IMG/VR virus record: IMGVR_UViG_3300045988_089750 | DNA length: 50,355 nt | Reading direction: 5' to 3' (one strand) | From: a virus | Shown here: positions 1,940 through 50,355 of the stretch, one piece after another | Layout of the letters: every line of letters begins with the position of its first letter | Position numbering within the stretch: position 1 is the first letter of the stretch | The notes under the pieces: generated by a model | Database searches by the model: none | The model's input: the letters and a program-made list of their open reading frames with translations, nothing else | Told to the model about the DNA's origin: nothing | Made by a program: the position numbers and the translations under genes

Positions 1940-2311
1940 TTAGTAACCTTCCGTTAATAAATCGTTCTTTACCATAGTTTTGATAGCAATAACCCTGCTA
2001 AGGTGTGCTTTATAGTCCGCTACTGCTTTCGCTTTGCGGTCTTCGTCCGTTTCTATACCCAACTGTGCGGCGTAATAGTCGTTAATCAAAGAAAATTCTT
2101 CGGTTTCGTCTATTTCGCTACGGATAACCGCACGTGTAAGGTTTTCGTAGTCCGGCTTCTGCCAAACCTGTACCGTATCGTAGTTGTAAACGGTCTTTTC
2201 GCCCGTTTCCGGGTCTTCTACCTTTTCTTCCACTATGTTGTAGTTATAGTGGTAAGAACCATTACCCAACGGTAAAATAATCGCGGGTCTAACGTCTGAA
2301 CTTGATTTCAT
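1940..2311 (-). CDS. Hypothetical protein
   Basis: ORF packed between the RT and the holin. No recognisable motif. Confidence 0.5.
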   Translation of the reverse strand: MKSSSDVRPAIILPLGNGSYHYNYNIVEEKVEDPETGEKTVYNYDTVQVWQKPDYENLTRAVIRSEIDETEEFSLINDYYAAQLGIETDEDRKAKAVADYKAHLSRVIAIKTMVKNDLLTEGY

Positions 2312-3323
2312 AAGGTGTAATTTTGTTTAACTTGTTAATTAAATATTCGCTGTCGCTGTATTTAGCCCAACCCCACCACGCGGCTAACGTCTGCTTAAAT
2401 TCATCCTCACTTAACGGTTTCTTCCGTTTCCGTAATTTAGCTATCTTACGGCAAAGGTTCTGTTTGATACGCTTCCTAAGCCGTGTTTCGTTCAAATAGA
2501 ATACATAGCCCAAGAAATCAATACCACGCCCGAAGCTGTCGCGGTGGTCGCGTGCCACCGGAAAGACTTGTTTGTTCTGTTTGATTTCCAGCTTTACGTT
2601 AGCCGCCAAATAGCTTTCAAACTCTGCCAGCAAAGCGTGAAGCGTCTTTTTGTCGCTATGTAATACTACAATGTCGTCGGCGTATCTGAAATAGTACCTT
2701 ACCCGCTTTACTTCCTTTACCCAATGGTCGAAGTAGGTAAGTACAAGATTTGCTAAATATTGGCTAAGGTAGTTGCCAATCGGTAAGCCTTCCGCACTGT
2801 CTATAATTTCGTCCAAAAGGTTGAGTAGCCGTGTGTCCTTAATCTTCCGGCGAACAATGGATTTTAGTACGGTGTGGTCTATGGAAGGGTAAAATTTGCG
2901 TATGTCTATTTTCAAGCAATACGCGCAGCCTGCCTTATCTCTGTCGATAACGTGCCTTAACTTATTTGCCGCCGCTTGTATGCCACGCCCTTTGATGCAG
3001 CTATAAGTGTCCGCCGTGAAAATAGACACCCATATAGGCTCTAAAATGTTCATTACGGCGTGATGTACAATCCGGTCGGGAAAGTATGGCAAACGGAAAA
3101 TCTCGCGTTCTTTAGGCTCGTATATCGTAAAGGTACTATATTCCGAAGTTCTGTAAGTTCCTGCTTTCAGTGCTTCGTGCAAAGACAAAAGGTTGGCTTC
3201 CTTGTTGCGGTCGTGTAACTTTACGCCGTAGGAATGTAGTTTGCCCTTGCGGGCGCGTTCGTCCGCAAGGTGCAAATTATCCAAACTTATTATTTTGTCG
3301 TAAAGGTTGCCTAACCTTTTCAT
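2289..3323 (-). CDS. DGR reverse transcriptase
   Basis: RT motifs are present, including IGNYLSQ (2760..2780; the (I/L)GxxxSQ signature of DGR RTs) and YADD (2673..2684). The gene is adjacent to a TR that has adenine-specific VR mismatches. Confidence 0.93.
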   Translation of the reverse strand: MKRLGNLYDKIISLDNLHLADERARKGKLHSYGVKLHDRNKEANLLSLHEALKAGTYRTSEYSTFTIYEPKEREIFRLPYFPDRIVHHAVMNILEPIWVSIFTADTYSCIKGRGIQAAANKLRHVIDRDKAGCAYCLKIDIRKFYPSIDHTVLKSIVRRKIKDTRLLNLLDEIIDSAEGLPIGNYLSQYLANLVLTYFDHWVKEVKRVRYYFRYADDIVVLHSDKKTLHALLAEFESYLAANVKLEIKQNKQVFPVARDHRDSFGRGIDFLGYVFYLNETRLRKRIKQNLCRKIAKLRKRKKPLSEDEFKQTLAAWWGWAKYSDSEYLINKLNKITPYEIKFRR

Positions 3324-3440
3324 AGTAATTTCTTTGCTGATTAAATGGTGTTCTTCGGTTTCCCTACCAAACCCCGTTAATGGTTAATATTTTCCGCCTT
3401 CCGGCGCGGTCTTTGTCCTTATTAGCTTTACAAAAAAATC

Positions 3441-3553
3441 AGTATAGCTGAGAGCCGATATTCGCATTCGTATTCGTAGCCGTGTTATTCGTATTCGCGT
3501 ACGAAAGCCCGGCATTCGCGCTGTTATTCGCATTACCGCCGAACAAGACACCC
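3441..3553 (-). repeat. DGR template repeat (TR)
   Basis: Non-coding 113-bp segment between the accessory ORF and the RT. In the VR frame it reads GVLFGGNANNSANAGLSYANTNNTATNTNANIGSQLY, which is AAY-rich. It aligns without gaps to VR1, VR2 and VR3, and every mismatch is at a TR adenine. Confidence 0.92.
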
Positions 3554-3580: not shown

Positions 3581-3925
3581 CTACTCAAAATAATAGCGCG
3601 TTCCCGAAGCCCGCATAGTTACCTTTCGCGGGAAGGCGTTACGCTTCTTTATTTCCTGCAAAATGTATTTTATTTCGCTGGAATTTGTGAAGAACTTCTT
3701 TGCTTCGCTTTCGGGGTCGTCCTTCTTGAACTTTATTTTCACGAGGAAACGGTTCGCACCGAATTTCGTTTTCACGTCTTCGATAAAATCAATTAACCAA
3801 AACTGCAAATTGATTAGTTTCTGCTGGGTGGTTTCCGGGCAGTTGAAATGTTTGTTCGCTTCGTCCGGCTGGATGTTCAAGAACGAAAGGCTACCGTCAT
3901 CTGTGCTATTATTGTTTGAAGTCAT
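3581..3925 (-). CDS. Hypothetical protein in the DGR accessory (avd) position
   Basis: 114-aa ORF between the target gene and the TR, where Avd normally sits. I do not recognise an Avd-like four-helix-bundle sequence, so this call rests on position only. Confidence 0.45.
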   Translation of the reverse strand: MTSNNNSTDDGSLSFLNIQPDEANKHFNCPETTQQKLINLQFWLIDFIEDVKTKFGANRFLVKIKFKKDDPESEAKKFFTNSSEIKYILQEIKKRNAFPRKVTMRASGTRYYFE

Positions 3926-3968: not shown

Positions 3969-5303
3969 TTACGCGGCGGGGATAAAGCAAAGCCGAGAGC
4001 CGAGATGCGCAGACGTAATCGCAGCCGTGTAATTCGCATACGCGCACGAAAGCCCGGCATACGCGCCGTCATTCGCACTACCGCCGAACAAGAAACCCCT
4101 TTGCGCTACGCCACTGGCTGGTATGTTGGTATAGAAGTAGTCGGCAAAGTAGGTAGTAGAACCTGCGCCCACTTCCGTAGGCATATTTTCCCCGTATTCG
4201 CCTATCATCATGCGCTTAACATAACCTTCCTTGCGTGGAAGTTCGCCACGTTTTACGTAATTGTCATAGTTTGTATCTTGGTAGTTCGCCGGGTTATCGC
4301 AAGTATAGAAAGAACTGATGCCGCCGTCCGCGTCTGATTCAATGGCGCATTTGCATCCGTCCGTCCAACTCCAAACATGCCCGAACGGGTTTTCTATTCC
4401 TCGGTATGAAGGTACTTTTACTTTGGTAACTACGCCCGTGTCGTATTCGTCCGGCATGGTGTATTCTACCACACCCGAAGCGTTACCCAATGAATTGGTA
4501 GTACCGCATGGCACAAACGGATAGTAGCTGTTGAAGGTGTTCCACTTTGTACTGTTAAGCGTCGTAACGCCTGCGCCTAACCCGCCTTGCTTGTACCCTT
4601 CGCTCGTAGGTTGCGCGTTAAAATCAAGCTGGCAGTTAAGGTTAGCGTATTCAATCACGTAAAGCCAATAGGTCGCGTTTTGTGCCGCGTATAAATCGCA
4701 GTTCCATCCTGCGCTGTTCAATCCGGCTGCACCTCTGTTACGTGCGTATTTTCGGAAGTTGGTAAGGCTCGTTTGTGTAGCTGGACGACCTAAGAGGGTT
4801 CTATAAGTTCCGTCCCATGCCGTATTATTGTTTCCGCCCCGGAAAGCAGCCGTAGTATTTACCACACTGGCAAGTTTGGGCGTAGCTGATAAAGTTCTGT
4901 CTATCGTGGCTTCGTATGCGCTCCGGTACATCTTCGGCACTTCGATAAAGCCCGGTAGTTGGTATTGTGATATAAGGCAGGTAAACGTAGTACCGTCAAA
5001 TTCAAACTTACGGTAGTGCTTCGGTATTTCTACCATTACCATGCCGGAAGCTCCGGTAAGGTCTGCCGCTGCCCCGGTGTCCGTCTTCGTACTGTCGGTT
5101 TGATGAAGGTAGGTAACAACCTGCCCGGCATCGTTAAGCAAACAACGGCGCATAAGGGATTGAACCGGGAGCGAAACATGTAGTTCCGATCTTCCTACGC
5201 GTTCTAACGCGGTATCTGCCACGTTTATATTAATCTTTACGCCGTAATAGTAATCATAAGGAAACGCGGGCTTTGTGTTGCCCGCTGCAATAATTAAACC
5301 CAT
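3969..5303 (-). CDS. DGR variable (target) protein with C-type-lectin/FGE-like C-terminal domain; probable receptor-binding tail protein
   Basis: The C-terminus contains NPFGHVWSWTDG ... FLFGGSANDGAYAGLSCAYANYTAAITSAHLGSRLCF and carries VR1. The start is placed at ATG 5303 (MGLIIAAG) to avoid a 70-nt overlap with the upstream gene. The ORF track's alternative start is 5384. Confidence 0.85.
   Translation of the reverse strand: MGLIIAAGNTKPAFPYDYYYGVKININVADTALERVGRSELHVSLPVQSLMRRCLLNDAGQVVTYLHQTDSTKTDTGAAADLTGASGMVMVEIPKHYRKFEFDGTTFTCLISQYQLPGFIEVPKMYRSAYEATIDRTLSATPKLASVVNTTAAFRGGNNNTAWDGTYRTLLGRPATQTSLTNFRKYARNRGAAGLNSAGWNCDLYAAQNATYWLYVIEYANLNCQLDFNAQPTSEGYKQGGLGAGVTTLNSTKWNTFNSYYPFVPCGTTNSLGNASGVVEYTMPDEYDTGVVTKVKVPSYRGIENPFGHVWSWTDGCKCAIESDADGGISSFYTCDNPANYQDTNYDNYVKRGELPRKEGYVKRMMIGEYGENMPTEVGAGSTTYFADYFYTNIPASGVAQRGFLFGGSANDGAYAGLSCAYANYTAAITSAHLGSRLCFIPAA
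3986..4098 (-). repeat. DGR variable repeat VR1 (full length)
   Basis: Gap-free alignment to TR at offset +545. There are 17 mismatches, all at TR adenines, plus one non-A mismatch at the distal boundary (TR 3549). Confidence 0.92.
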
Positions 5304-5314
5304 AGTTATAATTT

Positions 5315-21196: not shown

Positions 21197-21389
21197 GATT
21201 TAAAAAATAGGAAGCAAACACTTCACCGAAACTTCCAATTTTGAAAAAGAGTAGGCGGTAAGAAATAGGCGTATAAAACCACTGCATTGCCTGTTCATTT
21301 GCCCGACATTGAAATTAATTAGCTTCTGCGTGTGTTTAGTAGTCGGTAATATGGACGCGCTTTAAATCGCTTCATTTCCCCTTTGCGTT

Positions 21390-21552
21390 TTTCTCTCGCG
21401 CACACCATTAAGAAGAAGAGAAAGATAATTATTAAATCATATCATTACATATCATATCAATGTTGTTTTCGGTTGTTTTCGCTTGTTTTTTCAACCCTTC
21501 GGTTGTTTCGGTTGAAAAATCAACCACCCGGTTGTTTTCGGTTGTTTTGGCT
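21390..21552. repeat. Origin-like iteron + AT-rich element, copy A (intergenic)
   Basis: About 90 percent identical to 37699..37873, with an exact 85-bp core (21441..21525 = 37763..37847). It has about six GTTGTTTT(C/G)G units, an inverted repeat GGTTGAAAAATCAACC and an AT-rich ATCATATCA tract. Confidence 0.85.
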
Positions 21553-33483: not shown

Positions 33484-33986
33484 GCTATTTTTTGTTCCAC
33501 CTTTGTTCTTAATCTCGCTTCTGCATCGGCTACGTTCTTTCTCGCACGCTCCAGCTTTTTCCGAACTTTAACTAACTGCATATCGTTGGCTTCGTCAAAG
33601 AACAAATTACTTTTGTTTGCTTCTATATAGTCTTTTATCCTATTTTCTTGCAAGGTTATTCGCCCCTTCAATGTGGTTAGTCTTGATAAATCGGAATTAA
33701 AGCCGTATGTTTCTCCGCTTGTTTTATCGTAAAAAGACAATGTTTCATATATATGCGCTCGCGGGTCTGCACATGTTAATTTAGCTATGCGCCAATTTAC
33801 AACCCACCGCCACCGCTGTAAAATTTCGCGGGGTAGGTCGTAACGGTGTAATACAACTTCTTCGCCGTTTACTTTCTTGCAAATGCAAATCACGCAATAC
33901 ACCCTTACGCCTAATTCCCGTTCTGCCTTTGCGTATGCTTTTACAATTTCTTCCCAACTTTCGCCGATACCTTTTTCTTGTGCCAT
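33474..33986 (-). CDS. Hypothetical protein
   Basis: 170-aa ORF in the early operon. Confidence 0.55.
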   Translation of the reverse strand: MAQEKGIGESWEEIVKAYAKAERELGVRVYCVICICKKVNGEEVVLHRYDLPREILQRWRWVVNWRIAKLTCADPRAHIYETLSFYDKTSGETYGFNSDLSRLTTLKGRITLQENRIKDYIEANKSNLFFDEANDMQLVKVRKKLERARKNVADAEARLRTKVEQKIAWK

Positions 33987-33989
33987 AAG

Positions 33990-34442
33990 CTAATATCTGA
34001 ACGTTGTAAATTGAATAATAGCAAAGGTTAGCGCGTTTTCCTGCGCTTTATCGAATACCGGAATAAACCATGCTGCAAATTCCGAAGGTGTCAGCCCATC
34101 GTTACGCGCCAAATCTTTCAACTTAACCGGATGTCCTTCAACTTCTGCGACGAAGTTTAAGCCGTTCCTTCGTAATATCAAAGGTTGAACCGTACACATG
34201 TTAGCTGGAACTTCTAAAATACCTTCCTGCGAGCTTCTATACGGTTTATCTGCCCATTGGCGTAGGCATAACGTACCGTTTTTTTCTTGCAAGGCAGCTA
34301 TTTTATTCTTCCAATACTCGTAATTGCATCGGCATGTGTGCCGCTTTTGACCGTTAAGAACCTTTGCCTTAAAATCGGTTGCTTCGCCTGCCCGGAAATG
34401 TGCCGGGAAGAACTTCTTACTTAATAATACTACTGCTTTCAT
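33990..34442 (-). CDS. Hypothetical protein
   Basis: 150-aa ORF. A weak resemblance to ASCH-like beta-barrel proteins cannot be confirmed. Confidence 0.5.
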   Translation of the reverse strand: MKAVVLLSKKFFPAHFRAGEATDFKAKVLNGQKRHTCRCNYEYWKNKIAALQEKNGTLCLRQWADKPYRSSQEGILEVPANMCTVQPLILRRNGLNFVAEVEGHPVKLKDLARNDGLTPSEFAAWFIPVFDKAQENALTFAIIQFTTFRY

Positions 34443-36747: not shown

Positions 36748-37464
36748 CTATCGCGGCGTTAGCTTTGTTAGTCTTGGTCGGTAACTTGAATTATCAAAGC
36801 CTATAAGGTCGAACATCTCTACAAATCGGTCGGCTACACGAACCCCGTAACGCTTGGCTATATCTTCGTCGCCTTCCAAGTTTGAGGTTATAATCGTAAA
36901 TAGCTGGCGGTCGTAACGATGGTATAGCAAATCTACCAACGGGCTAACCTCGTTTCCCCAAACCTTTAGGCTTGCTGGTTCTGTCCCTACGTCATCAATG
37001 CAAAGAAGCTCGGTATTCTTCAAATCCGCTAAAAGTTCCTGCTTTTCGCCTTTTGCAGCTTCTGTAAGTGCGGAAGCTGGAATAAAGGAAACTCCTTTAC
37101 GCTCAAATGATATATCGCTGTGGTAAATCGTGTTTATTAGCTGGGAAATTGCACGCGCTAATGTTGTCTTTCCGCATCCGGGTGTTCCGTATATGAATAA
37201 CCCCGGTTTCATGCTTTCGCCAACGAGCCAACGCGCCGCCATTGTAAGATGCTGCCTTGTCGCTTCGTCTTCTTGGTAAGAATAGCCCCGGTTTTCAACT
37301 TGGAAACGGTAACATTCGCGTAGCATGGCGGGCACGTCCTGCGTATAACGGTCAATCTTAAAGCGTGCTACGGCGGGGCTTCTTTTGCGTAGCAGGTTCG
37401 CAAATGCCACTATATCTATCCGTTGTATCGGTTGCTCCTGCTTTTTGTTCTCTGTTGTTCCCAT
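36748..37464 (-). CDS. DnaC/IstB-like AAA+ helicase loader
   Basis: Walker A GTPGCGKTT and Walker B LLCIDDVG. The start is uncertain: ATG 37464 overlaps the upstream gene by 107 nt, and the alternative is ATG 37326. Confidence 0.75.
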   Translation of the reverse strand: MGTTENKKQEQPIQRIDIVAFANLLRKRSPAVARFKIDRYTQDVPAMLRECYRFQVENRGYSYQEDEATRQHLTMAARWLVGESMKPGLFIYGTPGCGKTTLARAISQLINTIYHSDISFERKGVSFIPASALTEAAKGEKQELLADLKNTELLCIDDVGTEPASLKVWGNEVSPLVDLLYHRYDRQLFTIITSNLEGDEDIAKRYGVRVADRFVEMFDLIGFDNSSYRPRLTKLTPR

Positions 37465-38218
37465 TGTCTTTCCTTATTTTAATTCTTAGATGATTAATCA
37501 AATGCCGCGCCCATTCGGTATAATTTATGTGGGTATCTCCGGTTAGTTCCCATTCGTCTATAACTTCTTCGGCTTCCTTGCGCAATCGTTCGGGAGTGAC
37601 ATAAAGCTGCATACAAATGGTTTCTATCTGCGCCCTTTTGTTTTCGCTGAAAAATTCGGTTAGAAACTTACGGTTTTCGGTTTCCTTTCCGTTTGTACTT
37701 TCTCTCTCGCGCGCACCATCAAGAAGAACAGGAGAATGAGAATTATTATTAATCATATCAACATCATTACATATCATATCAATGTTGTTTTCGGTTGTTT
37801 TCGCTTGTTTTTTCAACCCTTCGGTTGTTTCGGTTGAAAAATCAACCGCCCGGTTGTTTGGGTTGTTTTGGCTTGTTTCCTCGGTTTCCGTATTCTTTTT
37901 CTTCTTTCGTGCGTTCTGATTACCTTTAGGCGCGCCCCCTAATTTGCCGTTAGCTTTATTCAACTGCACTGTTTCCGCATAACGCTTGTTATCAGATTCA
38001 AGACGTTTTCGGATGGGTGCAAATGCTATCCTAACGGTTTTGTTCGCCGTCATTGCTTCCAAATCTTCCGCAGCCTTCGTCCGTATAGCTTCGTTTTCGC
38101 TCTCTAATTGGTTATAGGCTCTAATTGCGCGGAATAACATAGCCGTTTCTTCGTCGTCAAGTTCATCAAGCACTGAAAGCAAATCCATATATAATACGAA
38201 TGAATTTTTATCGCCCAT
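37358..38218 (-). CDS. Replisome organizer / replication initiator-like protein (contains the iteron array)
   Basis: The N-terminal FVLYMDLLSVLDELDDEETAMLFRAIRAY resembles phage replisome-organizer N-terminal domains. It lies upstream of the helicase loader. The low-complexity linker (about aa 116-173) is encoded by the iteron element. Confidence 0.6.
   Translation of the reverse strand: MGDKNSFVLYMDLLSVLDELDDEETAMLFRAIRAYNQLESENEAIRTKAAEDLEAMTANKTVRIAFAPIRKRLESDNKRYAETVQLNKANGKLGGAPKGNQNARKKKKNTETEETSQNNPNNRAVDFSTETTEGLKKQAKTTENNIDMICNDVDMINNNSHSPVLLDGARERESTNGKETENRKFLTEFFSENKRAQIETICMQLYVTPERLRKEAEEVIDEWELTGDTHINYTEWARHLINHLRIKIRKDNGNNREQKAGATDTTDRYSGICEPATQKKPRRSTL
37699..37873. repeat. 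Origin-like iteron + AT-rich element, copy B (inside the replisome-organizer gene)
   Basis: Same GTTGTTTT(C/G)G iterons, GGTTGAAAAATCAACC inverted repeat and ATCATATCA AT-rich tract as 21390..21552. Confidence 0.85.
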
Positions 38219-38263
38219 GATAGGTATATTTTAGGGACACGCCCGAAGGCGCGCCCCGGTTAG

Positions 38264-39112
38264 TTAATAACTTTCTTCTTGTTCTTTGTATGCCAAACAA
38301 AAGGCTTTTTCTACAATCGCGTTGCAAGCGAAAGGCGAAGCAGCAAGTATGGAAATATCCACTACCTTAGATTCTTCGTTTTCCTTTTCTATACGCTCTT
38401 TTATCTTGCTGTTTATCCATGCGGTAATGACTACCTTAGCCGTATCTACGTCGCGCGTCTTTACAACAAAATCGTAGTTCTGCTTATTCGGTTCTTCTTC
38501 GGCTTCCGATTGTATTGCTACGTCGGCTTCAACCTTATAATACTTCGTATCGTTGCGCTGTTCTTCCCCGTCGTTACTTTCTTCGCCTTCCTCGTTTGCG
38601 CCTTCCTGCGCTTCCACGTGTTTCCGCAGGCGGTCGTTAAGGATTATAACCCTATCCATTAACTTTATGCCAACAATGTCGAACGGTTGGGTAAAATTCA
38701 ACTCTATATAGTCGGTCGCAACCTCATAGGCTTTGACTATGTTTTGCGCCTGCAATATGAAGTTATGCCGTTTGCAGCCAATGGTAGCGGAAATCTTGAA
38801 CGGGTAAAGGCTGGTTCGCTTGTTTTCGTAAGCGAGCCTTCGCTGGTTACTTACTTCTACTTCCTTTACGTCTTTGCTTTGCAAGTAGAAATTTATTTCG
38901 GTCGCCAAATCGTTATCTATATACTTCCCGCGCTCAAACAAAATTTCGTTGCGTTCAATGGTTACAACTTCGCCCGTTTCGTCGTCCACAAAATCCTCGT
39001 TCCATGTACGCAAAACGTTTGCTGCCAAGTATTTTCCTATTATCCGGCGTATATCCGAAGTCTTGAAGCGTACTTCGTCTTTTCGGGTCTGTATTTTTTC
39101 GTTCTGCTTCAT
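38264..39112 (-). CDS. Hypothetical protein
   Basis: 282-aa ORF with an acidic central region. No motif recognised. Confidence 0.55.
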   Translation of the reverse strand: MKQNEKIQTRKDEVRFKTSDIRRIIGKYLAANVLRTWNEDFVDDETGEVVTIERNEILFERGKYIDNDLATEINFYLQSKDVKEVEVSNQRRLAYENKRTSLYPFKISATIGCKRHNFILQAQNIVKAYEVATDYIELNFTQPFDIVGIKLMDRVIILNDRLRKHVEAQEGANEEGEESNDGEEQRNDTKYYKVEADVAIQSEAEEEPNKQNYDFVVKTRDVDTAKVVITAWINSKIKERIEKENEESKVVDISILAASPFACNAIVEKAFCLAYKEQEESY

Positions 39113-39381
39113 AGCTTATCCGCGTTAAAGTCTTTTGACGGTTTGAAAACAACAACCTTGCGGGCTGGAACTAATATGGTTTCGCCCGTATTTATGTTCC
39201 GGGCTGGTTTCGCCTTGCGTTGCTTCGTTTGAAAAGTACCGAAGCCGCGAATAGTTACCGTATCGCCGCCCGTCACTTCGTCCCGAATAACATCAAATGT
39301 ACGTTCTAATACTTCCTTTACTTGATAGCTGTTTAATCCGGTCTGTTCCGCTACCGAGTTCACTAATTCCTGTTTTGTCAT
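39109..39381 (-). CDS. HU/IHF-family DNA-binding protein
   Basis: MTKQELVNSVAEQTGL...VTIRGFGTFQTKQRKAKPARNINTGETILVPARKVVVFKPSK is the classic HU-fold pattern. Confidence 0.9.
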   Translation of the reverse strand: MTKQELVNSVAEQTGLNSYQVKEVLERTFDVIRDEVTGGDTVTIRGFGTFQTKQRKAKPARNINTGETILVPARKVVVFKPSKDFNADKL

Positions 39382-39926
39382 AGCTTCTCAATTAAAATTT
39401 GTTCGTATAAGTCTGTAAATTGGTTGCCCGCATACCGTGCCAAACGTGAAGCGTAGAAGCAAAGCCGAGAGCCGAGATGCGCATACGAATCCGAAGCCGC
39501 GTCACTCGTACCCGCGCACGAAAGCCCGGCAGAACCTTTGCCTTTCGCGTTTTCTTGTATATAGAAGTAAGGGTAGTATTTGTATTGGTCGGTATTGTTC
39601 CAATCCGGTTTCCAGCCTTCGTTAAGTGCTGCGGTAATAGTTTCCAATTTGCGGCGTGCTATTTCGTCCGATCTGAAGCCTTGCGCCTTCGCATTTTGTT
39701 CGTTTATCGGTTCTACGCCTAATACCTTACATGCGTCTTCGTAGGTCTTTACCCGGTCGGTTATTTCCTCGTAGTCTTCTTCCTTGTAGAAGTAATCGAA
39801 AATACTACCGTTCCCTTCGTCTTCGGTAAGTTTCTTTACGGTGTCTTGCGCTTCTTCTACGTTGTCGTATCTGCCTTGTAAATTCTCGTTCCCGTTCTCT
39901 TTTCTGTATAAACAAATCTTTTTCAT
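39378..39926 (-). CDS. Remote DGR target candidate 2 (small early-region protein with embedded VR2)
   Basis: 182 aa with no signal peptide. It contains GSAGLSCAGTSDAASDSYAHLGSRLCF, encoded by VR2, and is a paralog of 41946..42683. Confidence 0.8.
   Translation of the reverse strand: MKKICLYRKENGNENLQGRYDNVEEAQDTVKKLTEDEGNGSIFDYFYKEEDYEEITDRVKTYEDACKVLGVEPINEQNAKAQGFRSDEIARRKLETITAALNEGWKPDWNNTDQYKYYPYFYIQENAKGKGSAGLSCAGTSDAASDSYAHLGSRLCFYASRLARYAGNQFTDLYEQILIEKL
39458..39533 (-). repeat. DGR variable repeat VR2 (remote, truncated)
   Basis: Gap-free alignment to TR 3441..3514 at offset +36017. There are 15 mismatches, all at TR adenines. Homology ends just past the A-free block CGAAAGCCCGGCA. 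Confidence 0.85.
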
Positions 39927-39944
39927 GTCACTAAAATTTAAATA

Positions 39945-40340
39945 TTAAAATAATGTTCCCTGCTTGGGCTTGTGCGCGTCTTCGTAAAGTATGCGCCTTT
40001 GCCTTGCGATACTCAACCGTACTGCTTTTATAGCTTCTTCACGTCCTTTCAGGCTTTCTTCGTATTCCAAAAGGTCGCTTTCGGTCGTAGCTAAGAAATA
40101 GCCTTCGGAAGTTGCTATAAGTCCCGGTAGAAGGTCGTTTGTACGAATGTGGTTTATTATCTTCCTTAGCCGTGCCGCGTCTATCTTGTAGCTGTCACGT
40201 AACCGGGAAATAATATACTTATTCGTTACCGCGTTGGCTTTGCCTATCTTGGTTTTCAAGCCTTCAAGAATAATCGGAAGTATTACTTTCCTTTCGTATT
40301 CTGTCAGCGGTTGCGTTTCTTCTGAAAACCCTTTAATCAT
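39945..40340 (-). CDS. Hypothetical protein (possible winged-helix)
   Basis: 131-aa ORF in the early operon. Confidence 0.5.
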   Translation of the reverse strand: MIKGFSEETQPLTEYERKVILPIILEGLKTKIGKANAVTNKYIISRLRDSYKIDAARLRKIINHIRTNDLLPGLIATSEGYFLATTESDLLEYEESLKGREEAIKAVRLSIARQRRILYEDAHKPKQGTLF

Positions 40341-40351
40341 AGTGCTTGCAA

Positions 40352-41104
40352 TTAAAAAGGTGTTTTGTTGAAACTAATCCGTAGTCCGGGTTTTGCGACG
40401 TGTACCGTTTTTCCGGTGGCTTTTGCTATTCCGTCCCGGAAGGCTACCGCGTCGCCGTTCCCTTCGCTTATATGTATCAATACTATGTTATTAACCCGTG
40501 TTAGGTCGTTAGCCTTCAACGCGTCCAAACAAGTATAGTAGCTTAAATGGCTTCTCCGTACTCGTTCTTTCAATACTTCCGGTATATAACCTTCTGTTAC
40601 ATTGCGTTCCAATATGTCCGGGTCGTAGTTGCATTCAATTAATATATTGTTCAACCCGGCAAATGTGCAAGGCAAATAGAAAGTATCGGTAGCAAACAAT
40701 ACGCCGCCCGTTTCTTCATGCCAGACGTAGAAGCCCAACGGTTCGCGGCTGTCGTGCTTCGTGGGAAAGGGAATGATAGTAAAACCGCCCAACCGTAAAT
40801 GCTGGTAACTTCCGTTTTCCATCCTTATGTGGGTCGGTCGCCAGCAAGAATTAATCTTAGCGGCTTCTATCGTGCCTTTGGAAGCGTAAACCGGAACAAC
40901 GTAGTTTAAAACCTCATTAATACGCCCGGCATGGTCGCCATGTTCATGGGTAATGAGGCAGCCTACTATTTTCTTTACGTTGTTGCCCAACGCTGCTAAT
41001 ACCTTCTTGAATGGTATTCCAGCTTCAAGTAGAAGGGCTTCGCCCGCGTTTTGCAAAACGTAGGCGTTACCCTCTGAACTTGAACCTAATACGGTTAATT
41101 CCAT
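40352..41104 (-). CDS. MBL-fold metallo-hydrolase
   Basis: HxHxDH motif (ITHEHGDHAG) in the typical N-terminal context. Confidence 0.8.
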   Translation of the reverse strand: MELTVLGSSSEGNAYVLQNAGEALLLEAGIPFKKVLAALGNNVKKIVGCLITHEHGDHAGRINEVLNYVVPVYASKGTIEAAKINSCWRPTHIRMENGSYQHLRLGGFTIIPFPTKHDSREPLGFYVWHEETGGVLFATDTFYLPCTFAGLNNILIECNYDPDILERNVTEGYIPEVLKERVRRSHLSYYTCLDALKANDLTRVNNIVLIHISEGNGDAVAFRDGIAKATGKTVHVAKPGLRISFNKTPF

Positions 41105-41106
41105 AT

Positions 41107-41934
41107 TTAGAACAATGGTTTAGCGTTATTACTTCCTCGACCTTCCCGTGCTTGCGGCGGGTTAGCTGGCTCGCTTTGCGCCGTTTGTCCCTGCTGGGCT
41201 TGTATGGGTTGCCCGTCGATAACTCCAATAGTAGGCGCGGCATTCGCTTCTTCTTTTATTTCTTCGGCTACCGCATCCACTATCGGTACGCTGCTTTGTT
41301 CGTCTGCATCGCCGAAGTCGCACCCCGTAATGTACTCGTATAGGGCTTTCTTAGCCTTTCTTTCGGCTTTTCCGCGCAGTTGGTCGTGGCTGCTGTAATC
41401 ATCCTTCTTTACGGTTGCAATAATGCTAAAGCCGTTTTTTTCTCCGTTATACTCATAGTTTATTTTGCAAGGTATTTCGGCAAAGTTCTGCGTTTGCCCC
41501 TTGTCGTATGAGGTATCAATGAAGTATTTTACGCCCAGCTTGCGAAGAAGCGAAGTATAACCTTCCTTAGTGGGGTACATCCTTTCGGCTATTATATTGA
41601 ACTGGTTTCCGGTCGGAAGCAAGCCGATAGTAACCGCGTCTATGATGCAATCGCGCACTATGTCACGGGTGTAAAGAGGAAGCGGGGCGCGCCCGCCGCT
41701 TCTTGCACGCCCGTTTCGGTCTGTAAGAAATCCTATTTTCGTGTTCATCAAAGGCATGAAAACCTTATCCATTACTTCATCGGTCATGGCTTCGCGAAGA
41801 AGTGCTATTACGTTTACGGCTGTAAATGCCGCACCGAAGTTGCTTACTATCTGCAAAGCCGAAGCGTCCTTGCAGGCTAATTCAAACTTTTCTTTTGCTG
41901 CCAATACGGTAGCGGGTAAAGTGTTGGTGTTCAT
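41107..41934 (-). CDS. Putative single-strand annealing recombinase (RecT/Red-beta-like)
   Basis: Called from its context between the SMC-like ATPase and the MBL nuclease-fold gene, plus a loose resemblance (LPTGNQFNIIAERMYPTKEGYTSLLRK) to RecT-type cores. Not verified. Confidence 0.4.
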   Translation of the reverse strand: MNTNTLPATVLAAKEKFELACKDASALQIVSNFGAAFTAVNVIALLREAMTDEVMDKVFMPLMNTKIGFLTDRNGRARSGGRAPLPLYTRDIVRDCIIDAVTIGLLPTGNQFNIIAERMYPTKEGYTSLLRKLGVKYFIDTSYDKGQTQNFAEIPCKINYEYNGEKNGFSIIATVKKDDYSSHDQLRGKAERKAKKALYEYITGCDFGDADEQSSVPIVDAVAEEIKEEANAAPTIGVIDGQPIQAQQGQTAQSEPANPPQAREGRGSNNAKPLF

Positions 41935-41945
41935 ACTATCGTTAG

Positions 41946-42683
41946 TTAATTGTTGTTCATTATGTCCTTTAAAAAGTCGTCTATTCCGCCGCCTTTAATC
42001 ATCTTTTCAAAAGCTATTTCGCGGGTTGCTCGTTCTACTATCGGCGCGGACTGCTTTCCGGTAAGAAGTTCTTTCAAGCCCTTTATTATGGCTCCATAAT
42101 TTCCGCAAAAACCTACCATTACTCCGGTACTTCCTTCGCCATTTTTATCCTTTGTATCAGTGTCGCAACCTACTACGATAAGACCGCGTGAACTGCTTCC
42201 GTTACAGAATGGTACTAAATGCTTTTGCATTACTTCTGTGGTGGTCTTCAAAAAGTCGCTTTGGGGTTCTTCTTGGCTGCTTTCCGCTTGTTGTGTTTCT
42301 CCGTTTCCCGAAGCAAAGCAATAATAGTCACGGTACAAGTCCGCAAAGTGTTCGGCTGCGTATTTCGCGAGCGCGGACGTGGGAAAGCAAAGCCGAGAGC
42401 CGAAATGCGCATGCGTACCCGTAGCCGCGTAAGACGTATTCGCGCACGAAAGCCCGGCATTTACATAGCGGAATAGCGGGTAATACTTCCATTCGTTTTT
42501 GTCGTCCCAATTCGGTTTCCAGCCGTTATTAAGCGCACGGGTTATTACTGTCAGCTTGTGGTAGGCTAACATACTTCTTTGGTCTTCCTTCGGGAAAATG
42601 TTAAATACTTCTTCGTTAATCGGTTGAATGTTCAAAACTCTACAAGCGTCCTCGTAAGACACGATTTTCTTTTCTGTATTCAT
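41946..42683 (-). CDS. Remote DGR target candidate 3 (early-region protein with embedded VR3)
   Basis: 245 aa with no signal peptide. It contains NAGLSCANTSYAATGTHAHFGSRLCF, encoded by VR3. Its N-terminal half is paralogous to 39378..39926. Confidence 0.8.
   Translation of the reverse strand: MNTEKKIVSYEDACRVLNIQPINEEVFNIFPKEDQRSMLAYHKLTVITRALNNGWKPNWDDKNEWKYYPLFRYVNAGLSCANTSYAATGTHAHFGSRLCFPTSALAKYAAEHFADLYRDYYCFASGNGETQQAESSQEEPQSDFLKTTTEVMQKHLVPFCNGSSSRGLIVVGCDTDTKDKNGEGSTGVMVGFCGNYGAIIKGLKELLTGKQSAPIVERATREIAFEKMIKGGGIDDFLKDIMNNN
42386..42461 (-). repeat. DGR variable repeat VR3 (remote, truncated)
   Basis: Gap-free alignment to TR 3441..3516 at offset +38945. There are 13 mismatches, all at TR adenines. 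Confidence 0.85.
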
Positions 42684-42717
42684 AAATTTATTTATTAAAA
42701 TGGTTAATAATGTTCTG

Positions 42718-44769
42718 TTATTCTACTTTGAAGTCATCGGTAGTTACTACCAACTTTACAAGCTGGCTAACAACCGGGATAAACTTGTTAATACTTTCTG
42801 CGTTATCCACGAAAATAGGCGCACTAACGTTATGGAACGTGCAAAGGGTATTTATTATGTCAAGCCCGGCATTAACTTTCCCGGCTTGGTTCTTATCCGC
42901 GTATTTTACCCCGTCAATAAGGCAAATGCAATCCGGTTCTTTTTCGCCGTTTACAAGCGTCTTGTACATCTTGAACTGAACCCGGCTAAACAATCCGTTT
43001 ACGCGGCGTTCCACTTCCGTCATACGGGCTTTTATCAAGTCGGCTATTACTATTTCGCAGCCTTGTATTTCGGCGCGTTCCTGCGCCAGTTTTGCGGCTT
43101 CCCCGTTTAGTTCAGCTATGCGCTTTTCGTTGGCTTCTATAATTGCGCGAAGGTTTAGCTTACGTTTTACTTCATCAAGCCGGGCAGTAAGGTTGGCTTT
43201 CCGTTGGCGTATCTCTGTTCTGTTTGCCGTGTCTTCCGCGTTGAAGATTGGAAGTTGTTCGGAAAGTTCCTTTATTTCTTTTTCAAGCGCGACCCATTCC
43301 GGCAGGTCTTCTCCGTTAATATCCGGTTCGGTATTTACGCGGGGATTGTCGTTCAAAACCTTTTGCAACGCTTCACGATCTTCTTTCGCCTTTGTTACGG
43401 CGGTAGTATGGCTGGTTTCCAATTCGGCTAACGCTTTATCTATCCGGCTGGCTTCTTCTTCCTGCGATGCTATCATTTCGTTTAACCGCTGACCGTCCGT
43501 GTTAATTTTGTTAAGGCGTTCTTCCCGGTCTGCGTAGAATTTTTCGCGGGCGGCTTCCCGGTCGGTGTTGTACTTAGCTAATGCTACCGGGTCGGCGCAA
43601 GCGTGCTTGAACAACGGGCAAACAAGGCTTTCCGTAGCGGTAAATTCTTCGGCGTTTACTTTGTACCATCTTTTGCGTAGTTCGTTCTGCATTTGCTTGT
43701 AGCCTTCTATCGTGCTTTGCGTCCGTTTCTTCTCGTTCGTCAAACGGTCGTATTCGCTACGGTAACGGCTGGCTTCGCTGCGTTCGTCGTTTATAACCTG
43801 CTGTAACTTGCGGTCGGCATTATTGTAGGTTTCGTTCTTTTTGAACGCTTCGTTCCTTGCCGTTTCCTTTGCCTTAAATACTAAAGCGTGCTGGCTGCTA
43901 CGTTTGTCATTTATGGCGGTTTGTACCTTAGCGGCAGCTTCATAGGCGATACGGTTGGCTTCCGCTGCTGATGCGGCGGCTTCGTCTATGTCGTTCAATT
44001 CTTTTGTAAGCTGTTCCTTCTCGGTATTAAGGGCGGCATAATCCGGTGTCAGCGGGGTAGCGCGCGTTATTTCGTCAATACGTGTAGGTATCTTTTCCAG
44101 TTCCTTCGTTATCTTCTCCTTTTGCGCTGAAATCTCGCGTTTATAGTCTTCTACGGTTTTCCCGCTAAGCTGTTCTATCAAAGTGGCAAAGGCTGTATTG
44201 CCCTTCGCTATGTCTTCGTAGCTTACTCCCCCGGCAATCTGCAAAAGCATTTCACGTTGTGCCGTCCAATGAAGGGAAAGGAAATAGTAGGGGTTGGTAA
44301 TCATCTTGAAAACGGCTTCGGGTATAATCGCGTTTATACGTTCGTCGTATTCGCTTTTTGTTTTTAATGGGACTCCGTTATAGAAGTAGTCGGTATGGTG
44401 TCCCTTTAACTTCCTTTCCGTCTTTCCCTTCTCTGTTTTCCATTCTTCAACCAATACGCGGCGAAGTTCTACGGTTTCAACGCTTCCCGTTTCGGTATCT
44501 ATTATTTCTAACGTTCCGGCTACTTCGTGTTCAAGGTCGGGAATAAAATTGCCTTCCGCGTCGTTGGTCTTAATTCCGAATTTGCTATCTACATTCCCTT
44601 CGCTGTCTTTGCCCCAAAGAAGCCATGTAAAAGCGTCCATAATGGTAGTTTTTCCCGTACCGTTCCGTCCGCTGATGGTTGTAACTGTGTCGTTAAAGTC
44701 TATAACGACGTTACGCAAGCCTTTGAAATTAGCAAGGCTTAAACGTTTGATGATTGCTTTTTTGCTCAT
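42718..44769 (-). CDS. SMC/SbcC/RecF-like AAA ATPase with long coiled coil
   Basis: N-terminal Walker A (ISGRNGTGKTTIMDA), about 450 aa of coiled coil, and a C-terminal Walker B-like PIFVDNAESI. The start is set at ATG 44769 (MSKKAII), directly after the upstream stop. Confidence 0.8.
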   Translation of the reverse strand: MSKKAIIKRLSLANFKGLRNVVIDFNDTVTTISGRNGTGKTTIMDAFTWLLWGKDSEGNVDSKFGIKTNDAEGNFIPDLEHEVAGTLEIIDTETGSVETVELRRVLVEEWKTEKGKTERKLKGHHTDYFYNGVPLKTKSEYDERINAIIPEAVFKMITNPYYFLSLHWTAQREMLLQIAGGVSYEDIAKGNTAFATLIEQLSGKTVEDYKREISAQKEKITKELEKIPTRIDEITRATPLTPDYAALNTEKEQLTKELNDIDEAAASAAEANRIAYEAAAKVQTAINDKRSSQHALVFKAKETARNEAFKKNETYNNADRKLQQVINDERSEASRYRSEYDRLTNEKKRTQSTIEGYKQMQNELRKRWYKVNAEEFTATESLVCPLFKHACADPVALAKYNTDREAAREKFYADREERLNKINTDGQRLNEMIASQEEEASRIDKALAELETSHTTAVTKAKEDREALQKVLNDNPRVNTEPDINGEDLPEWVALEKEIKELSEQLPIFNAEDTANRTEIRQRKANLTARLDEVKRKLNLRAIIEANEKRIAELNGEAAKLAQERAEIQGCEIVIADLIKARMTEVERRVNGLFSRVQFKMYKTLVNGEKEPDCICLIDGVKYADKNQAGKVNAGLDIINTLCTFHNVSAPIFVDNAESINKFIPVVSQLVKLVVTTDDFKVE

Positions 44770-44770
44770 A

Positions 44771-45451
44771 TTACTGATATTTTTGAAGTGAATAAAATCC
44801 CGCGTCAAGACTTACGGTTATTTTCTCTAATTTCTTCTTTTGGGCTGCATAGGAGCGCGCTATGCTGTTCATGTAGCCCGTAAGGTTTACTATGTAGGTG
44901 CGCTTCTCTATGATGCAGTTTAGGGCTACGTCTAAGACGGCTTCCCAAACTTCCCGTACGCGTTCCGGCTGTACCGCTATTCTGTGCCGGATGATGTATT
45001 CCGTAACTTTTGCTTTACGGCTTTCAATCTCGGTTATTACCATTGAAAAATCCCCCGTTCGGTATGCCTGCAACACAATCGCGCAAAATTGGATGGCATT
45101 CAAATATTCTTCTTGTATGTTGGAAACGCTTTTTTTCTTTCTCAAACGTTCCCTAATCCGTTCTTGGAATGTATTACGGTCTATTAGTTCTATCTGCCCG
45201 CTGGCTGTTTCAACTATACAGTATTTTCGGCTAATCTCGCGCGGGTCTATGTTCTTTTCCGCCGAATAGAGGAAACGTTTAAGGCTTCCGGTGTATTTTT
45301 CCCCGTTATCCGCCTTTAATATCAATGCGTTATTGCATGGTTTCAATATACGCGGTTCTACTCCCCGGCAGTAGCTTCGTATCTGCCTGCTTTCCCTATT
45401 TATTTCGTATTTAGAAAAGCCGGGAATGTTAATCCAAATATTATTAATCAT
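44771..45451 (-). CDS. NUMOD4-motif DNA-binding protein
   Basis: The N-terminal WINIPGFSKYEINRESRQIRS resembles the NUMOD4 motif. The rest is unassigned. Confidence 0.45.
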   Translation of the reverse strand: MINNIWINIPGFSKYEINRESRQIRSYCRGVEPRILKPCNNALILKADNGEKYTGSLKRFLYSAEKNIDPREISRKYCIVETASGQIELIDRNTFQERIRERLRKKKSVSNIQEEYLNAIQFCAIVLQAYRTGDFSMVITEIESRKAKVTEYIIRHRIAVQPERVREVWEAVLDVALNCIIEKRTYIVNLTGYMNSIARSYAAQKKKLEKITVSLDAGFYSLQKYQ

Positions 45452-46780: not shown

Positions 46781-47344
46781 CTATTCGGAAGAAGAAGCGT
46801 TACCTATCTGTTTGTAGTAGCAGGTATCTTCCATGCTGTCCATGTAGTTAAGCATGCGCAAAAGCCTTTGCAGGTCTTCTGGGCTTAATTCCCGTTCTTC
46901 TTCGTTGTTGTCGTCGCTATGCTTGCCGAATATCCTATGCTTTTGTATGTACGCTTCCGTAAACTCCTTTTGCATCCGCTTCATGTCCTTTGTAAGCTGT
47001 TTGTAGTGCCAATCGTACAAAGCCTGCAATTCTACGTACTGCATTTTGGTTAATTCAACGGTAACGTATCTTCGGTGCTGGTGGTAGCTCATCCGTTTTT
47101 CGTTTGTAACGTTGAAATAGCACTGGGTAAACAAAGTAAATCCGTACCCGTTTTCCTTTACGTTGAAGGTGTACTGCTGTTTTTCTTCCTGTGCTTCTAT
47201 TATTTCTTCCAACGAAACGCCGTATTTAGCTAATAGTTGGTCTAACAAACGCTTTGCGTTCAGTGCTTCGCCTTTCTCGCCGCGTTCCGCAAGGGCTTGT
47301 AGTTTCTGAACCTTGCTTCTAATGCTTTCAAAATCTTTCTTCAT
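46781..47344 (-). CDS. DUF2786-like hypothetical protein
   Basis: The N-terminal IRSKVQKLQALAERGEKGEALNAKRLLDQLLAKYG resembles the DUF2786 pattern. Confidence 0.5.
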   Translation of the reverse strand: MKKDFESIRSKVQKLQALAERGEKGEALNAKRLLDQLLAKYGVSLEEIIEAQEEKQQYTFNVKENGYGFTLFTQCYFNVTNEKRMSYHQHRRYVTVELTKMQYVELQALYDWHYKQLTKDMKRMQKEFTEAYIQKHRIFGKHSDDNNEEERELSPEDLQRLLRMLNYMDSMEDTCYYKQIGNASSSE

Positions 47345-50256: not shown

Positions 50257-50355
50257 CAATCAATAGCGTAAAATCCCGAATATTCGGCTACTTATGAAAA
50301 TGTGACAACAGTTGATTATATTTGAACATCTTGGGCTTAGAGCCGTACGCACCGC
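50257..50355. repeat. Terminal direct repeat, right copy (identical to 1..99)
   Basis: Exact 99-bp identity with the window start. Confidence 0.95.

What the first reader, a model, noticed from the sequence alone, without database searches (positions are those of the whole stretch)
39458..39533. Remote truncated variable repeat (VR2) 36 kb from the TR, inside a small early-region protein
Bases 39458..39531 align gap-free to TR 3441..3514. There are 15 mismatches, all at TR adenines, and none at the other aligned positions. The substitution pattern differs from VR1 and VR3 at most variable sites. That fits independent mutagenic homing events better than a simple gene duplication. The VR encodes ...AGLSCAGTSDAASDSYAHLGSRLCF in the middle of ORF 39378..39926, not at its C-terminus. 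The host gene sits between an HU gene and replication/recombination genes, not among structural genes.
Basis: seen in the sequence. Interest (0 to 1): 0.9.

Follow-up and report, generated by a model that had tools for sequence, protein, structure and literature searches.

The report
Active remote DGR target, early gene
A Bacteroides prophage uses one reverse-transcriptase "mutator" cassette to rewrite its tail-fibre tip and also a short loop in two small, non-structural early proteins far away in the genome; this is real and clearly active, but the same kind of remote target, in the same protein family, has already been reported in other Bacteroides phages.

Summary
Window 39458-39531 aligns without gaps to the template repeat (TR) at 3441-3514. 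There are 15 mismatches, all at TR adenines on the coding (minus) strand, and 0 of 53 non-adenine positions differ (P about 3e-11).

The repeat is not a fossil. In 8 near-identical genomes, 17 of 23 TR-adenine sites vary, against 2 of 53 non-A sites and 4 of 473 sites in the rest of the gene. At least 119 protein variants differ only at codons 137-151. Its 90%-identity cluster holds 11,299 distinct sequences, against about 450-650 for neighbouring genes. In diverged relatives, the remote repeats carry the non-A changes of their own TR.

VR2 (ORF 39378-39926) and VR3 (ORF 41946-42683) lie in paralogous, soluble, signal-less proteins of an uncharacterised roughly 120-aa family (phrog_11581). They sit in the recombination/replication module of a temperate Bacteroides phage.

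The concept is already published: Quimbyvirus (Benler 2021) and four gut prophages (Dahlman 2025). LoVEphage's remote target belongs to the same family.

The new parts are modest: two paralogous remote targets, a 5'-truncated VR, and no detectable C-type lectin scaffold. The protein's function is still unknown.

The parts
39458..39531 (-). VR2: a 74-nt variable repeat homologous to the 3' two-thirds of the TR. The part that actually varies is 39476-39517 (18 mutable adenine sites in 12 codons, residues 137-151).
39457..39475 (-). IMH-like 3' boundary element, TCGGCTCTCGGCTTTGCTT. It is identical at all three VRs and differs from the TR end (TCGGCTCTCAGCTATACTG). The three TR-adenine sites inside it never vary.
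   Evidence: Its role in directing homing is inferred by analogy with BPP-1.
39518..39530 (-). Adenine-free 13-nt block GCCGGGCTTTCGT at the 5' edge of VR2. It is identical in TR, VR1, VR2 and VR3 and is the inferred 5' homology anchor for cDNA integration into the truncated VRs.
   Evidence: for the sequence; the role is inferred
39378..39926 (-). VR2 host gene, 182 aa. It is acidic (pI 4.9) with no signal peptide or TM segment. It belongs to phrog_11581, with an N-terminal beta-beta-alpha-beta domain (residues 1-51) followed by the roughly 120-aa VR-bearing domain. Its stop codon overlaps the start of the HU gene.
3441..3548 (-). Template repeat (TR), 108 nt, containing 30 adenines. VR2 and VR3 use only the 3441-3514/3516 part.
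2289..3323 (-). DGR reverse transcriptase, 344 aa. It matches RVT_1 and phrog_1423 and contains the motif IGNYLSQ.
3581..3925 (-). Small basic ORF (114 aa, pI 9.2, phrog_19665) at the position where Avd usually lies, between VR1 and the TR. It has no detectable similarity to Avd.
3986..4093 (-). VR1: the full-length 108-nt variable repeat at the C-terminus of tail protein ORF 3969-5384 (phrog_5302). It has 17 mismatches to the TR, all at adenines.
42386..42461 (-). VR3: the second remote truncated VR, in ORF 41946-42683 (245 aa), a paralog of the VR2 protein. It has 13 mismatches to the TR, all at adenines. Among 9 genomes, 19 of 23 A sites vary and 0 of 53 non-A sites vary.
39109..39381 (-). 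Context: HU-family DNA-binding protein immediately downstream of the VR2 gene, in the same operon.
40352..41104 (-). Context: MBL-fold hydrolase lying between the VR3 and VR2 genes (phrog_392). Its Anti-Pycsar Apyc1 match is below threshold.
42718..44808 (-). Context: SbcC/SMC-like ATPase upstream of the VR3 gene, part of the recombination module.

Best explanation
VR2 is an actively diversified, remote target of the phage's single diversity-generating retroelement (DGR).

Shown:
- One TR lies next to a DGR-type RT.
- Three VRs differ from the TR only at adenines.
- The TR is invariant while all three VRs vary among near-identical genomes.
- The remote VRs follow the non-A changes of their own TR in diverged lineages.

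Inferred, by analogy with Bordetella phage BPP-1:
- TR RNA is reverse-transcribed with adenine-specific misincorporation.
- The diffusible cDNA replaces any site that carries the 19-nt IMH-like end TCGGCTCTCGGCTTTGCTT.
- For VR2 and VR3, which lack the first 32 nt of TR homology, the 5' crossover falls in the adenine-free block GCCGGGCTTTCGT.

Result: 12 codons (137-151) can be rewritten into up to about 4.7e10 stop-free variants. These sit in a loop of a small, acidic, signal-less protein that is co-transcribed with HU and with recombination and replication genes.

Function, inferred at roughly 0.35: an intracellular, early-expressed variable binding protein used in phage-host or phage-phage conflict, such as counter-defence or host takeover. 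It is probably not a virion receptor-binding protein.
For: A-only mismatches: VR2 15/15 (17/17 over 76 nt), VR3 13/13, VR1 17/17, with 0 non-A mismatches. P = 3e-11 to 3e-12.

Copy number: exactly four copies in the window, and the IMH-like 19-mer occurs only at the three VRs.

Population data:
- In 8 near-identical genomes, 17/23 A sites vary, against 2/53 non-A sites and 4/473 sites in the rest of the gene.
- For VR3, 19/23 A sites vary, 0/53 non-A sites vary, and 41/662 sites vary in the rest of the gene.
- 119 variants of 182 aa have their entropy confined to codons 137-151.
- The 90% clusters hold 11,299 (VR2 protein) and 14,478 (VR3 protein) distinct sequences, against 449-652 for the single-protein clusters of three neighbouring genes and 476 for the RT.

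TR behaviour: the TR is identical in relatives whose VRs differ. In contigs 093846 and 000650, the non-A changes of the TR are mirrored in VR1, VR2 and VR3.

Paralogs: the flanks of the two host genes are only 57% identical at nucleotide level, yet all 53 non-A VR positions are identical.

RT: RVT_1 and phrog_1423 matches, with motif IGNYLSQ.

Codon design: AAY/ACG/TAC/ATC codons cannot mutate to stop codons.

Protein: no signal peptide or TM segment, pI 4.9. Early-module neighbours.

Precedent: the same family is the remote DGR target in LoVEphage, as described for Quimbyvirus (PMC8008677).
Against: - No experiment and no read-level data were available. Variation is seen between assemblies, not shown within one population over time.
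- No Avd homolog was detected.
- No conserved hairpin was found downstream of the VRs.
- The roles of the IMH-like element and the 5' anchor are assigned by analogy only.
- Nothing tested here addresses the protein's function. Its neighbours are recombination and replication genes rather than recognised anti-defence genes, and the Apyc1-like match of the adjacent hydrolase is below threshold.
- A virion-associated role cannot be excluded.
Confidence: 0.9

Rival explanations
1. VR2 is a fossil: a dead copy left by duplication of a VR-containing segment and no longer rewritten by the DGR.
For: VR2 is truncated to 74 of 108 nt and lies far from the cassette. A DGR-less crAss-like phage carries what looks like such a relic pair.
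Against: 17/23 A sites vary among near-identical genomes, with almost no other variation. The cluster holds 11,299 distinct sequences. All 53 non-A positions are identical to the TR although the paralog flanks are only 57% identical. The VRs follow TR changes in diverged lineages.
Confidence: 0.01
2. The variation at VR2 comes from gene conversion or recombination among the three VR copies, or from mis-assembly of repeats, and not from retrohoming.
For: Three similar repeats in one genome could recombine or confuse assemblers. Two IMG/VR contigs are broken or duplicated exactly at VR2 (L011, L016).
Against: Conversion among three copies cannot produce four alleles at a site, or hundreds of haplotypes restricted to TR-adenine positions. 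VR1, VR2 and VR3 within one genome differ at 10-11 of 18 sites. The flanks assemble cleanly in the other 10 IMG/VR contigs aligned.
Confidence: 0.02
3. Homing into VR2 and VR3 is real but collateral. Any sequence carrying the IMH-like end is rewritten, and diversifying these small proteins brings no selective benefit.
For: The codon design of the TR is dictated by the tail target. No function is known for the family. Its scaffold shows no homology to the tail C-type lectin domain outside the VR-coded stretch.
Against: The arrangement is conserved across lineages with RT identity down to about 79% and recurs in unrelated LoVEphage/Quimby-type phages. A separate 162-aa subfamily is hypervariable at the same patch. 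All VRs are in frame, and the ORFs are intact in every variant seen. The scaffold residues flanking the VR are near-invariant across a family of about 5,000 representatives.
Confidence: 0.1
4. The VR2 protein is a virion or adsorption component, for example a tail accessory, decoration or second receptor-binding module, that simply happens to be encoded outside the structural module.
For: It shares the TR-coded ligand-binding peptide with the tail protein. Its weak phrog_5302 'tail' match covers only that peptide. Two-target phage DGRs with both targets structural are known (tentaclins, PMC10743442).
Against: It sits in an operon with HU, recombination and replication genes. It is small and has no tail-attachment domain. 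Outside the shared VR-coded stretch it matches no structural-protein family in PHROGs, PDB or BFVD.
Confidence: 0.12

Closest known systems
Quimbyvirus / LoVEphage DGR with a second, distal non-structural target (Benler et al. 2021, PMC8008677; Dahlman et al. 2025, PMC12629997)
   Same: A Bacteroides temperate phage in which one TR serves a tail-protein VR next to the RT and also a VR in a small protein far from the cassette. The LoVEphage remote target (QVQ57199.1) is a homolog of the VR2 protein (34% identity, phrog_11581). It carries a 113-nt VR that matches that phage's TR and tail VR.
   Different: This is a different phage lineage: about 50 kb, with no nucleotide match in GenBank phages. 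It has two paralogous remote targets rather than one. Its remote VRs are 5'-truncated (74 of 108 nt), whereas the LoVEphage VR is full length. Its neighbours are HU, recombination and replication genes rather than methyltransferases and a tRNA ligase. Its RT is a single intact ORF, not a frameshifted one.
Bordetella phage BPP-1 DGR (Mtd, TR/VR, IMH, Avd, bRT)
   Same: Adenine-specific TR-to-VR information transfer. The TR is invariant. The 3' end of the VR differs from the TR end in an IMH/IMH*-like way. The RT carries the [LIV]GxxxSQ-type motif.
   Different: BPP-1 has a single VR at the C-terminus of a tail-fibre C-type lectin domain next to the cassette. Here two extra targets lie 11-14 kb away (33-36 kb in prophage order), no Avd homolog is detectable, and no conserved downstream hairpin is found.
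Two-target phage DGRs with tentaclins (PMC10743442)
   Same: One TR serves two different target genes in gut phages, and the second VR is shorter than the first.
   Different: Both tentaclin-system targets lie within the cassette and are predicted receptor-binding proteins with C-type lectin domains. Here the extra targets are remote, small and non-structural, with no detectable C-type lectin scaffold.
Multi-target bacterial DGRs with remote VRs (Treponema denticola, Legionella, cyanobacteria; Wu et al. 2018, PMC5758913)
   Same: One TR and RT act in trans on several paralogous targets scattered in the genome.
   Different: Those are cellular elements that diversify surface or secreted lipoproteins. 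Here the element is a phage, and the extra targets lack export signals.

Membership tests
Diversity-generating retroelement (DGR) | TR/VR pair whose differences are confined to TR adenines | tested here: met
   VR2 15/15 (17/17 over 76 nt), VR3 13/13 and VR1 17/17 mismatches at adenines, with 0 at other bases. P about 1e-11.
Diversity-generating retroelement (DGR) | Reverse transcriptase adjacent to the TR, with the DGR-type motif [LIV]GxxxSQ | tested here: met
   ORF 2289-3323 starts 118 nt downstream of the TR. It matches RVT_1 (E = 1e-19) and phrog_1423 (E = 1e-127). The sequence contains IGNYLSQ. That this motif defines DGR RTs comes from my own knowledge of the family.
Diversity-generating retroelement (DGR) | The TR stays constant while the VR varies in related genomes (unidirectional transfer) | tested here: met
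   The TR is identical in L052 and L055 while their VR1, VR2 and VR3 differ. Non-A TR changes in L074 and L086 are mirrored in their VRs. A-site-only variation is seen.
Diversity-generating retroelement (DGR) | IMH at the VR 3' end, distinct from IMH* at the TR | tested here: inconclusive
   The sequence pattern fits: a 19-mer is identical at the three VRs, absent from the TR, and fixed among relatives. Its function in homing cannot be tested here.
Diversity-generating retroelement (DGR) | Avd accessory protein | tested here: not met
   The 114-aa basic ORF at the usual Avd position has no Pfam match and no PDB sequence match to Avd. It belongs to phrog_19665, of unknown function. Avd is not universal in DGRs.
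Diversity-generating retroelement (DGR) | Hairpin or cruciform downstream of the VR (BPP-1-type target recognition) | tested here: inconclusive
   DNA folding of the 70 nt downstream of each VR shows no shared stem-loop.
Diversity-generating retroelement (DGR) | VR displayed on a C-type lectin fold | tested here: inconclusive
   For the VR2 domain:
- No Pfam hit.
- No PDB sequence hit.
- Two AlphaFold models (pLDDT 79-80, with the VR loop below 50) give no Foldseek PDB match with E < 1.
- hhalign against the tail-target scaffold aligns only the 28 VR-coded columns.
The low-confidence VR region prevents a firm negative.
Quimby/LoVEphage-type remote DGR target family (phrog_11581) | Homology of the target protein | tested here: met
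   phrog_11581 matches at E = 2e-37 (VR2 protein) and 8.5e-37 (VR3 protein). tblastn to the LoVEphage protein gives 34% identity over 68% of the query. That protein carries a VR.
Quimby/LoVEphage-type remote DGR target family (phrog_11581) | [quoted passage not shown] | tested here: met
   The distance is 36.0 kb in the window and 14.2 kb across the circular junction. The neighbours are early genes.
Quimby/LoVEphage-type remote DGR target family (phrog_11581) | Neighbourhood of counter-defence genes (methyltransferases, tRNA ligase) | tested here: not met
   The neighbours here are HU, an MBL hydrolase, an SbcC-like ATPase, a primosomal-like protein and a DnaC-like loader. The only counter-defence hint is an Apyc1 match below threshold (25 bits against a cut-off of 50).

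The most novel reading that the evidence does not exclude
The roughly 120-aa family (phrog_11581; about 5,000 representatives at 50% identity; no Pfam, PDB or fold match) may be a previously undefined, mostly helical, non-C-type-lectin scaffold. Phage DGRs would use it to evolve an intracellular, early-expressed binding protein: in effect a programmable counter-defence or host-takeover factor that is co-diversified with the tail fibre. On this reading it recurs in several unrelated Bacteroidota phage lineages and survives as a relic where the DGR has been lost.
Probability: 0.25. Interest if true: 0.8.

Novelty: new member of a known kind. Interest (0 to 1): 0.5.

Why it matters
Nearly all characterised phage DGR targets are receptor-binding tail proteins. 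Here a DGR keeps rewriting small cytoplasmic early proteins, at a scale of more than 10,000 distinct sequences in public data. That suggests phages also use targeted hypermutation inside the cell, plausibly against variable host defences or competitors.

This locus offers:
- a compact, well-delimited example with two paralogous remote targets and one tail target sharing one TR;
- clear boundaries (an IMH-like 19-mer and a 13-nt adenine-free 5' anchor) for testing how cDNA finds remote, truncated targets;
- a large uncharacterised protein family whose ligand is unknown.

It does not establish a new principle, because remote non-structural targets in Bacteroides phages are already published.

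Tried and rejected
- Near-identical DNA search in GenBank phages (window 38000-44000 and 1-25000): no match. Relatives came from IMG/VR instead.
- Pfam on the VR2 and VR3 proteins and on 72 family members: nothing above noise.
- PDB profile search: nothing.
- Two AlphaFold models searched with Foldseek against PDB: no hit with E < 1. BFVD returned only uncharacterised phage proteins, plus a weak DUF7336-like match for the N-terminal 50 aa.
- hhalign of the family against the tail-target C-terminal scaffold, to test for a shared C-type lectin fold: only the VR-coded 28 columns align.
- Search for a conserved hairpin downstream of the VRs: none shared.
- Avd search for the 114-aa ORF: negative.
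- Test of whether crAss-like cr109_1 has an active DGR on its family member: no RT or TR, only a 58-nt stretch at 74% identity shared with its Mtd-like tail gene. I therefore dropped the claim that the family is DGR-targeted in crAss-like phages.
- Fossil copy, gene conversion and assembly artefact were considered and rejected (see the rival explanations).

Full report
**1. The observation**

The window is a complete phage genome with identical 99-nt ends (1-99 = 50257-50355). Most genes are on the minus strand.

Read on the minus strand, TR 3441-3548 has three partners:
- VR1 at 3986-4093: 108 nt, 17 mismatches.
- VR2 at 39458-39531/33: 74-76 nt, 15-17 mismatches.
- VR3 at 42386-42461: 76 nt, 13 mismatches.

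Every mismatch is at a TR adenine, and no non-adenine position differs: 0 of 53 for VR2 and VR3, and 0 of 78 for VR1. The chance that all VR2 mismatches fall on adenines is 3e-11 for 74 nt and 2.6e-12 for 76 nt. A pattern with N at each adenine finds exactly these four copies, and none in shuffled sequence.

**2. The cassette**

On the minus strand the order is:
- Tail protein ORF 3969-5384 (phrog_5302), with VR1 at its C-terminus.
- A 114-aa basic ORF at 3581-3925 (phrog_19665, not Avd-like).
- The TR.
- The RT at 2289-3323 (RVT_1, phrog_1423, motif IGNYLSQ).

These assignments rest.

**3. Is VR2 alive?**

IMG/VR holds many relatives. I compared the window with seven genomes whose VR2 gene is otherwise nearly identical.
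- 17 of the 23 TR-adenine sites are polymorphic, often with three or four alleles.
- 2 of 53 non-A sites vary, both as singletons.
- 4 of the 473 positions in the rest of the gene vary.

The varying span is 39476-39517.

A protein search returned 119 distinct 182-aa variants at 93-96% identity. Their entropy is confined to codons 137-151, and mean entropy elsewhere is 0.016 bits.

Cluster sizes give an independent control. The 90%-identity clusters of the VR2 and VR3 proteins hold 11,299 and 14,478 distinct sequences. The single-protein clusters of three neighbouring genes hold 449-652, and the RT cluster holds 476. Exact copies of the RT and hydrolase sequences occur on 1,000 or more contigs, whereas the window's exact VR2 sequence occurs on 4.

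VR3 behaves the same way: 19 of 23 A sites vary and 0 of 53 non-A sites vary, even though 41 of 662 other positions in that gene vary.

**4. TR-to-VR directionality**

Two relatives (L052, L055) have a TR identical to the window's, while their VR1, VR2 and VR3 all differ. In two diverged lineages (contigs 093846 and 000650, RT 80% and 79% identical), the TR carries non-A changes: GGG>GGT, ACG>ATG and TCTC>TCCC in the first, and TTTCG>TTGCG and ACGGCTACG>ACCCCCTCG in the second. The same changes appear in those genomes' VR1, VR2 and VR3. Only continued copying from the TR into the remote sites explains this.

**5. Boundaries**

The last three TR-adenine sites (39460, 39462, 39466) are fixed as G, T, G in every VR of every relative. 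The 19-mer TCGGCTCTCGGCTTTGCTT is identical at the three VRs and absent from the TR, which ends TCGGCTCTCAGCTATACTG. This is the pattern expected of an IMH/IMH* pair. Its function is inferred, not tested.

VR2 and VR3 both lose TR homology at the same point, just upstream of the adenine-free block GCCGGGCTTTCGT. I take that block to be the 5' crossover anchor.

No conserved hairpin follows the VRs.

**6. Duplication and homing**

The two host proteins are paralogs with 45% aa identity, sharing the motifs YEDAC..L, ALN.GWKP.W, KYYP.F and LA.YA..F.DLY. Outside the VR their DNA is 57% identical. Inside it, all 53 non-A positions are identical, and all 12 differences are at adenine sites. Within the window, the three VRs differ from one another at 10-11 of the 18 mutable sites.

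So an old gene duplication was followed by independent, continuing rewriting of each copy.

**7. Coding consequences**

The TR codons are TAC, six AAY codons, four ACG codons and ATC. None of them can mutate to a stop codon. The 18 adenines allow 6.9e10 DNA variants and 4.7e10 protein variants. In the window's VR2, 12 of the 18 sites are mutated.

**8. What is the protein?**

The VR2 protein is 182 aa, has pI 4.9, and has no hydrophobic segment, so it carries no signal peptide or TM helix. Its stop codon overlaps the start of an HU gene.

Upstream lie phrog_2113, an MBL-fold hydrolase, a 275-aa protein of unknown function, the VR3 paralog and an SbcC-like ATPase. Downstream lie phrog_35807, a primosomal-like/DUF6291 protein, a DnaC-like loader and an SSB. 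The phage is integrated in B. thetaiotaomicron GCA_024793505.1 with the same gene order, and it has an integrase.

Both proteins belong to phrog_11581, of unknown function. A profile search finds 5,031 representatives at 50% identity with E <= 1e-3, and 3,410 with E <= 1e-10. The listed hits are small proteins of 116-353 aa, and some contain two tandem domains.

Attempts to assign a fold or family gave:
- No Pfam match.
- No PDB sequence match.
- AlphaFold models with pLDDT 79-80, confident helices and a VR loop below 50.
- No Foldseek PDB match with E < 1.
- Only uncharacterised phage proteins in BFVD.
- Only the 28 VR-coded columns aligned by hhalign against the C-terminal scaffold of the tail targets.

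A C-type lectin fold is therefore not confirmed. It is also not excluded, because the VR region is poorly modelled.

**9. Comparison with what is known**

Benler et al. 2021 (PMC8008677) described a Quimbyvirus DGR with a second VR in a non-structural gene, distal from the structural module, near methyltransferases and a tRNA ligase. Dahlman et al. [quoted passage not shown]

LoVEphage has that same neighbourhood. Its gene 33613-34197 is homologous to the VR2 protein. It contains a 113-nt VR that matches LoVEphage's TR and tail VR. The protein family is therefore already a known, though unnamed, remote DGR target.

A separate 162-aa subfamily, found on contigs of about 51 kb, is hypervariable at the same patch.

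In the crAss-like phage cr109_1, a family member shares only a decayed 58-nt stretch with the Mtd-like tail gene, and the genome has no RT or TR. The family therefore also exists without an active DGR.

**10. Verdict**

This is an active, trans-acting DGR target and a new member of a published kind.

The incremental points are:
- two paralogous remote targets;
- 5'-truncated VRs with a defined anchor;
- placement in the recombination/replication module;
- a large target family with no detectable C-type lectin scaffold.

The function of the protein remains unknown. My best guess is an intracellular variable binder used in phage-host conflict, at roughly 0.35.

Noticed in passing
window 1-99 and 50257-50355: The two ends of the window are identical 99-nt direct repeats. 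The window is therefore a circular or terminally redundant complete genome of 50,256 bp.
   Followed up: partly
window 21371-21537 and 37682-37859: A segment of about 170 nt is duplicated (97 nt at 99% identity plus 64 nt at 73%) and is rich in CGGTTGTTT iteron-like repeats. One copy lies in a divergent intergenic region. The other lies inside the replication-initiator-like ORF 37358-38218. These are candidate replication origins or regulatory sites.
   Followed up: no
window 40352-41104 (minus strand): The MBL-fold hydrolase between the two remote target genes has a Pfam match to Anti-Pycsar Apyc1 that is below threshold (25 bits against a cut-off of 50). The same family is listed in the precomputed hits for the prophage copy (L134).
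   Followed up: no
window 41946-42320 (minus strand; residues about 125-245 of the VR3 protein): The VR3 paralog has a C-terminal extension of about 120 aa that the VR2 protein and most family members lack. No family match was found for it.
   Followed up: no
window 39774-39926 (minus strand; residues 1-51 of the VR2 protein): This N-terminal beta-beta-alpha-beta domain is confidently modelled. It resembles small DUF7336-type phage proteins in BFVD (TM about 0.7-0.8, but E = 0.06-0.4). It is present only in the close lineage; other family members have different N-termini.
   Followed up: partly
L136 (crAss-like cr109_1, NC_055892.1) 1871-2278 and 46909-46966: Family member gp03 shares a 58-nt stretch at 74% identity with the 3' end of the Mtd-like tail gene gp68. 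The genome has no RT and no TR, and the differences are not adenine-specific. This looks like the relic of a lost DGR.
   Followed up: partly
L011 1783-2267 and L016 6001-6599: These IMG/VR assemblies are broken at VR2. L011 has an N and a deletion there, and L016 has a 53-nt duplication containing an N. These are typical assembly failures at a hypervariable site.
   Followed up: no
L056 about 3308-3380 (contig IMGVR_UViG_3300029560_000286): This relative's TR lacks 6 nt (GCGAAT) that are present in its own VR1 and VR2, and its VRs are only lightly mutated. This is either an assembly collapse of the ACGAAT repeats or a recent TR deletion.
   Followed up: partly
proteins P0121, P0123, P0125, P0126: Some family members carry two tandem copies of the roughly 120-aa domain, each with its own VR-like patch.
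   Followed up: no
window 3581-3925 (minus strand): The ORF at the Avd position is basic (pI 9.2) and conserved (phrog_19665), but shows no similarity to Avd. It may be a different DGR accessory protein.
   Followed up: partly
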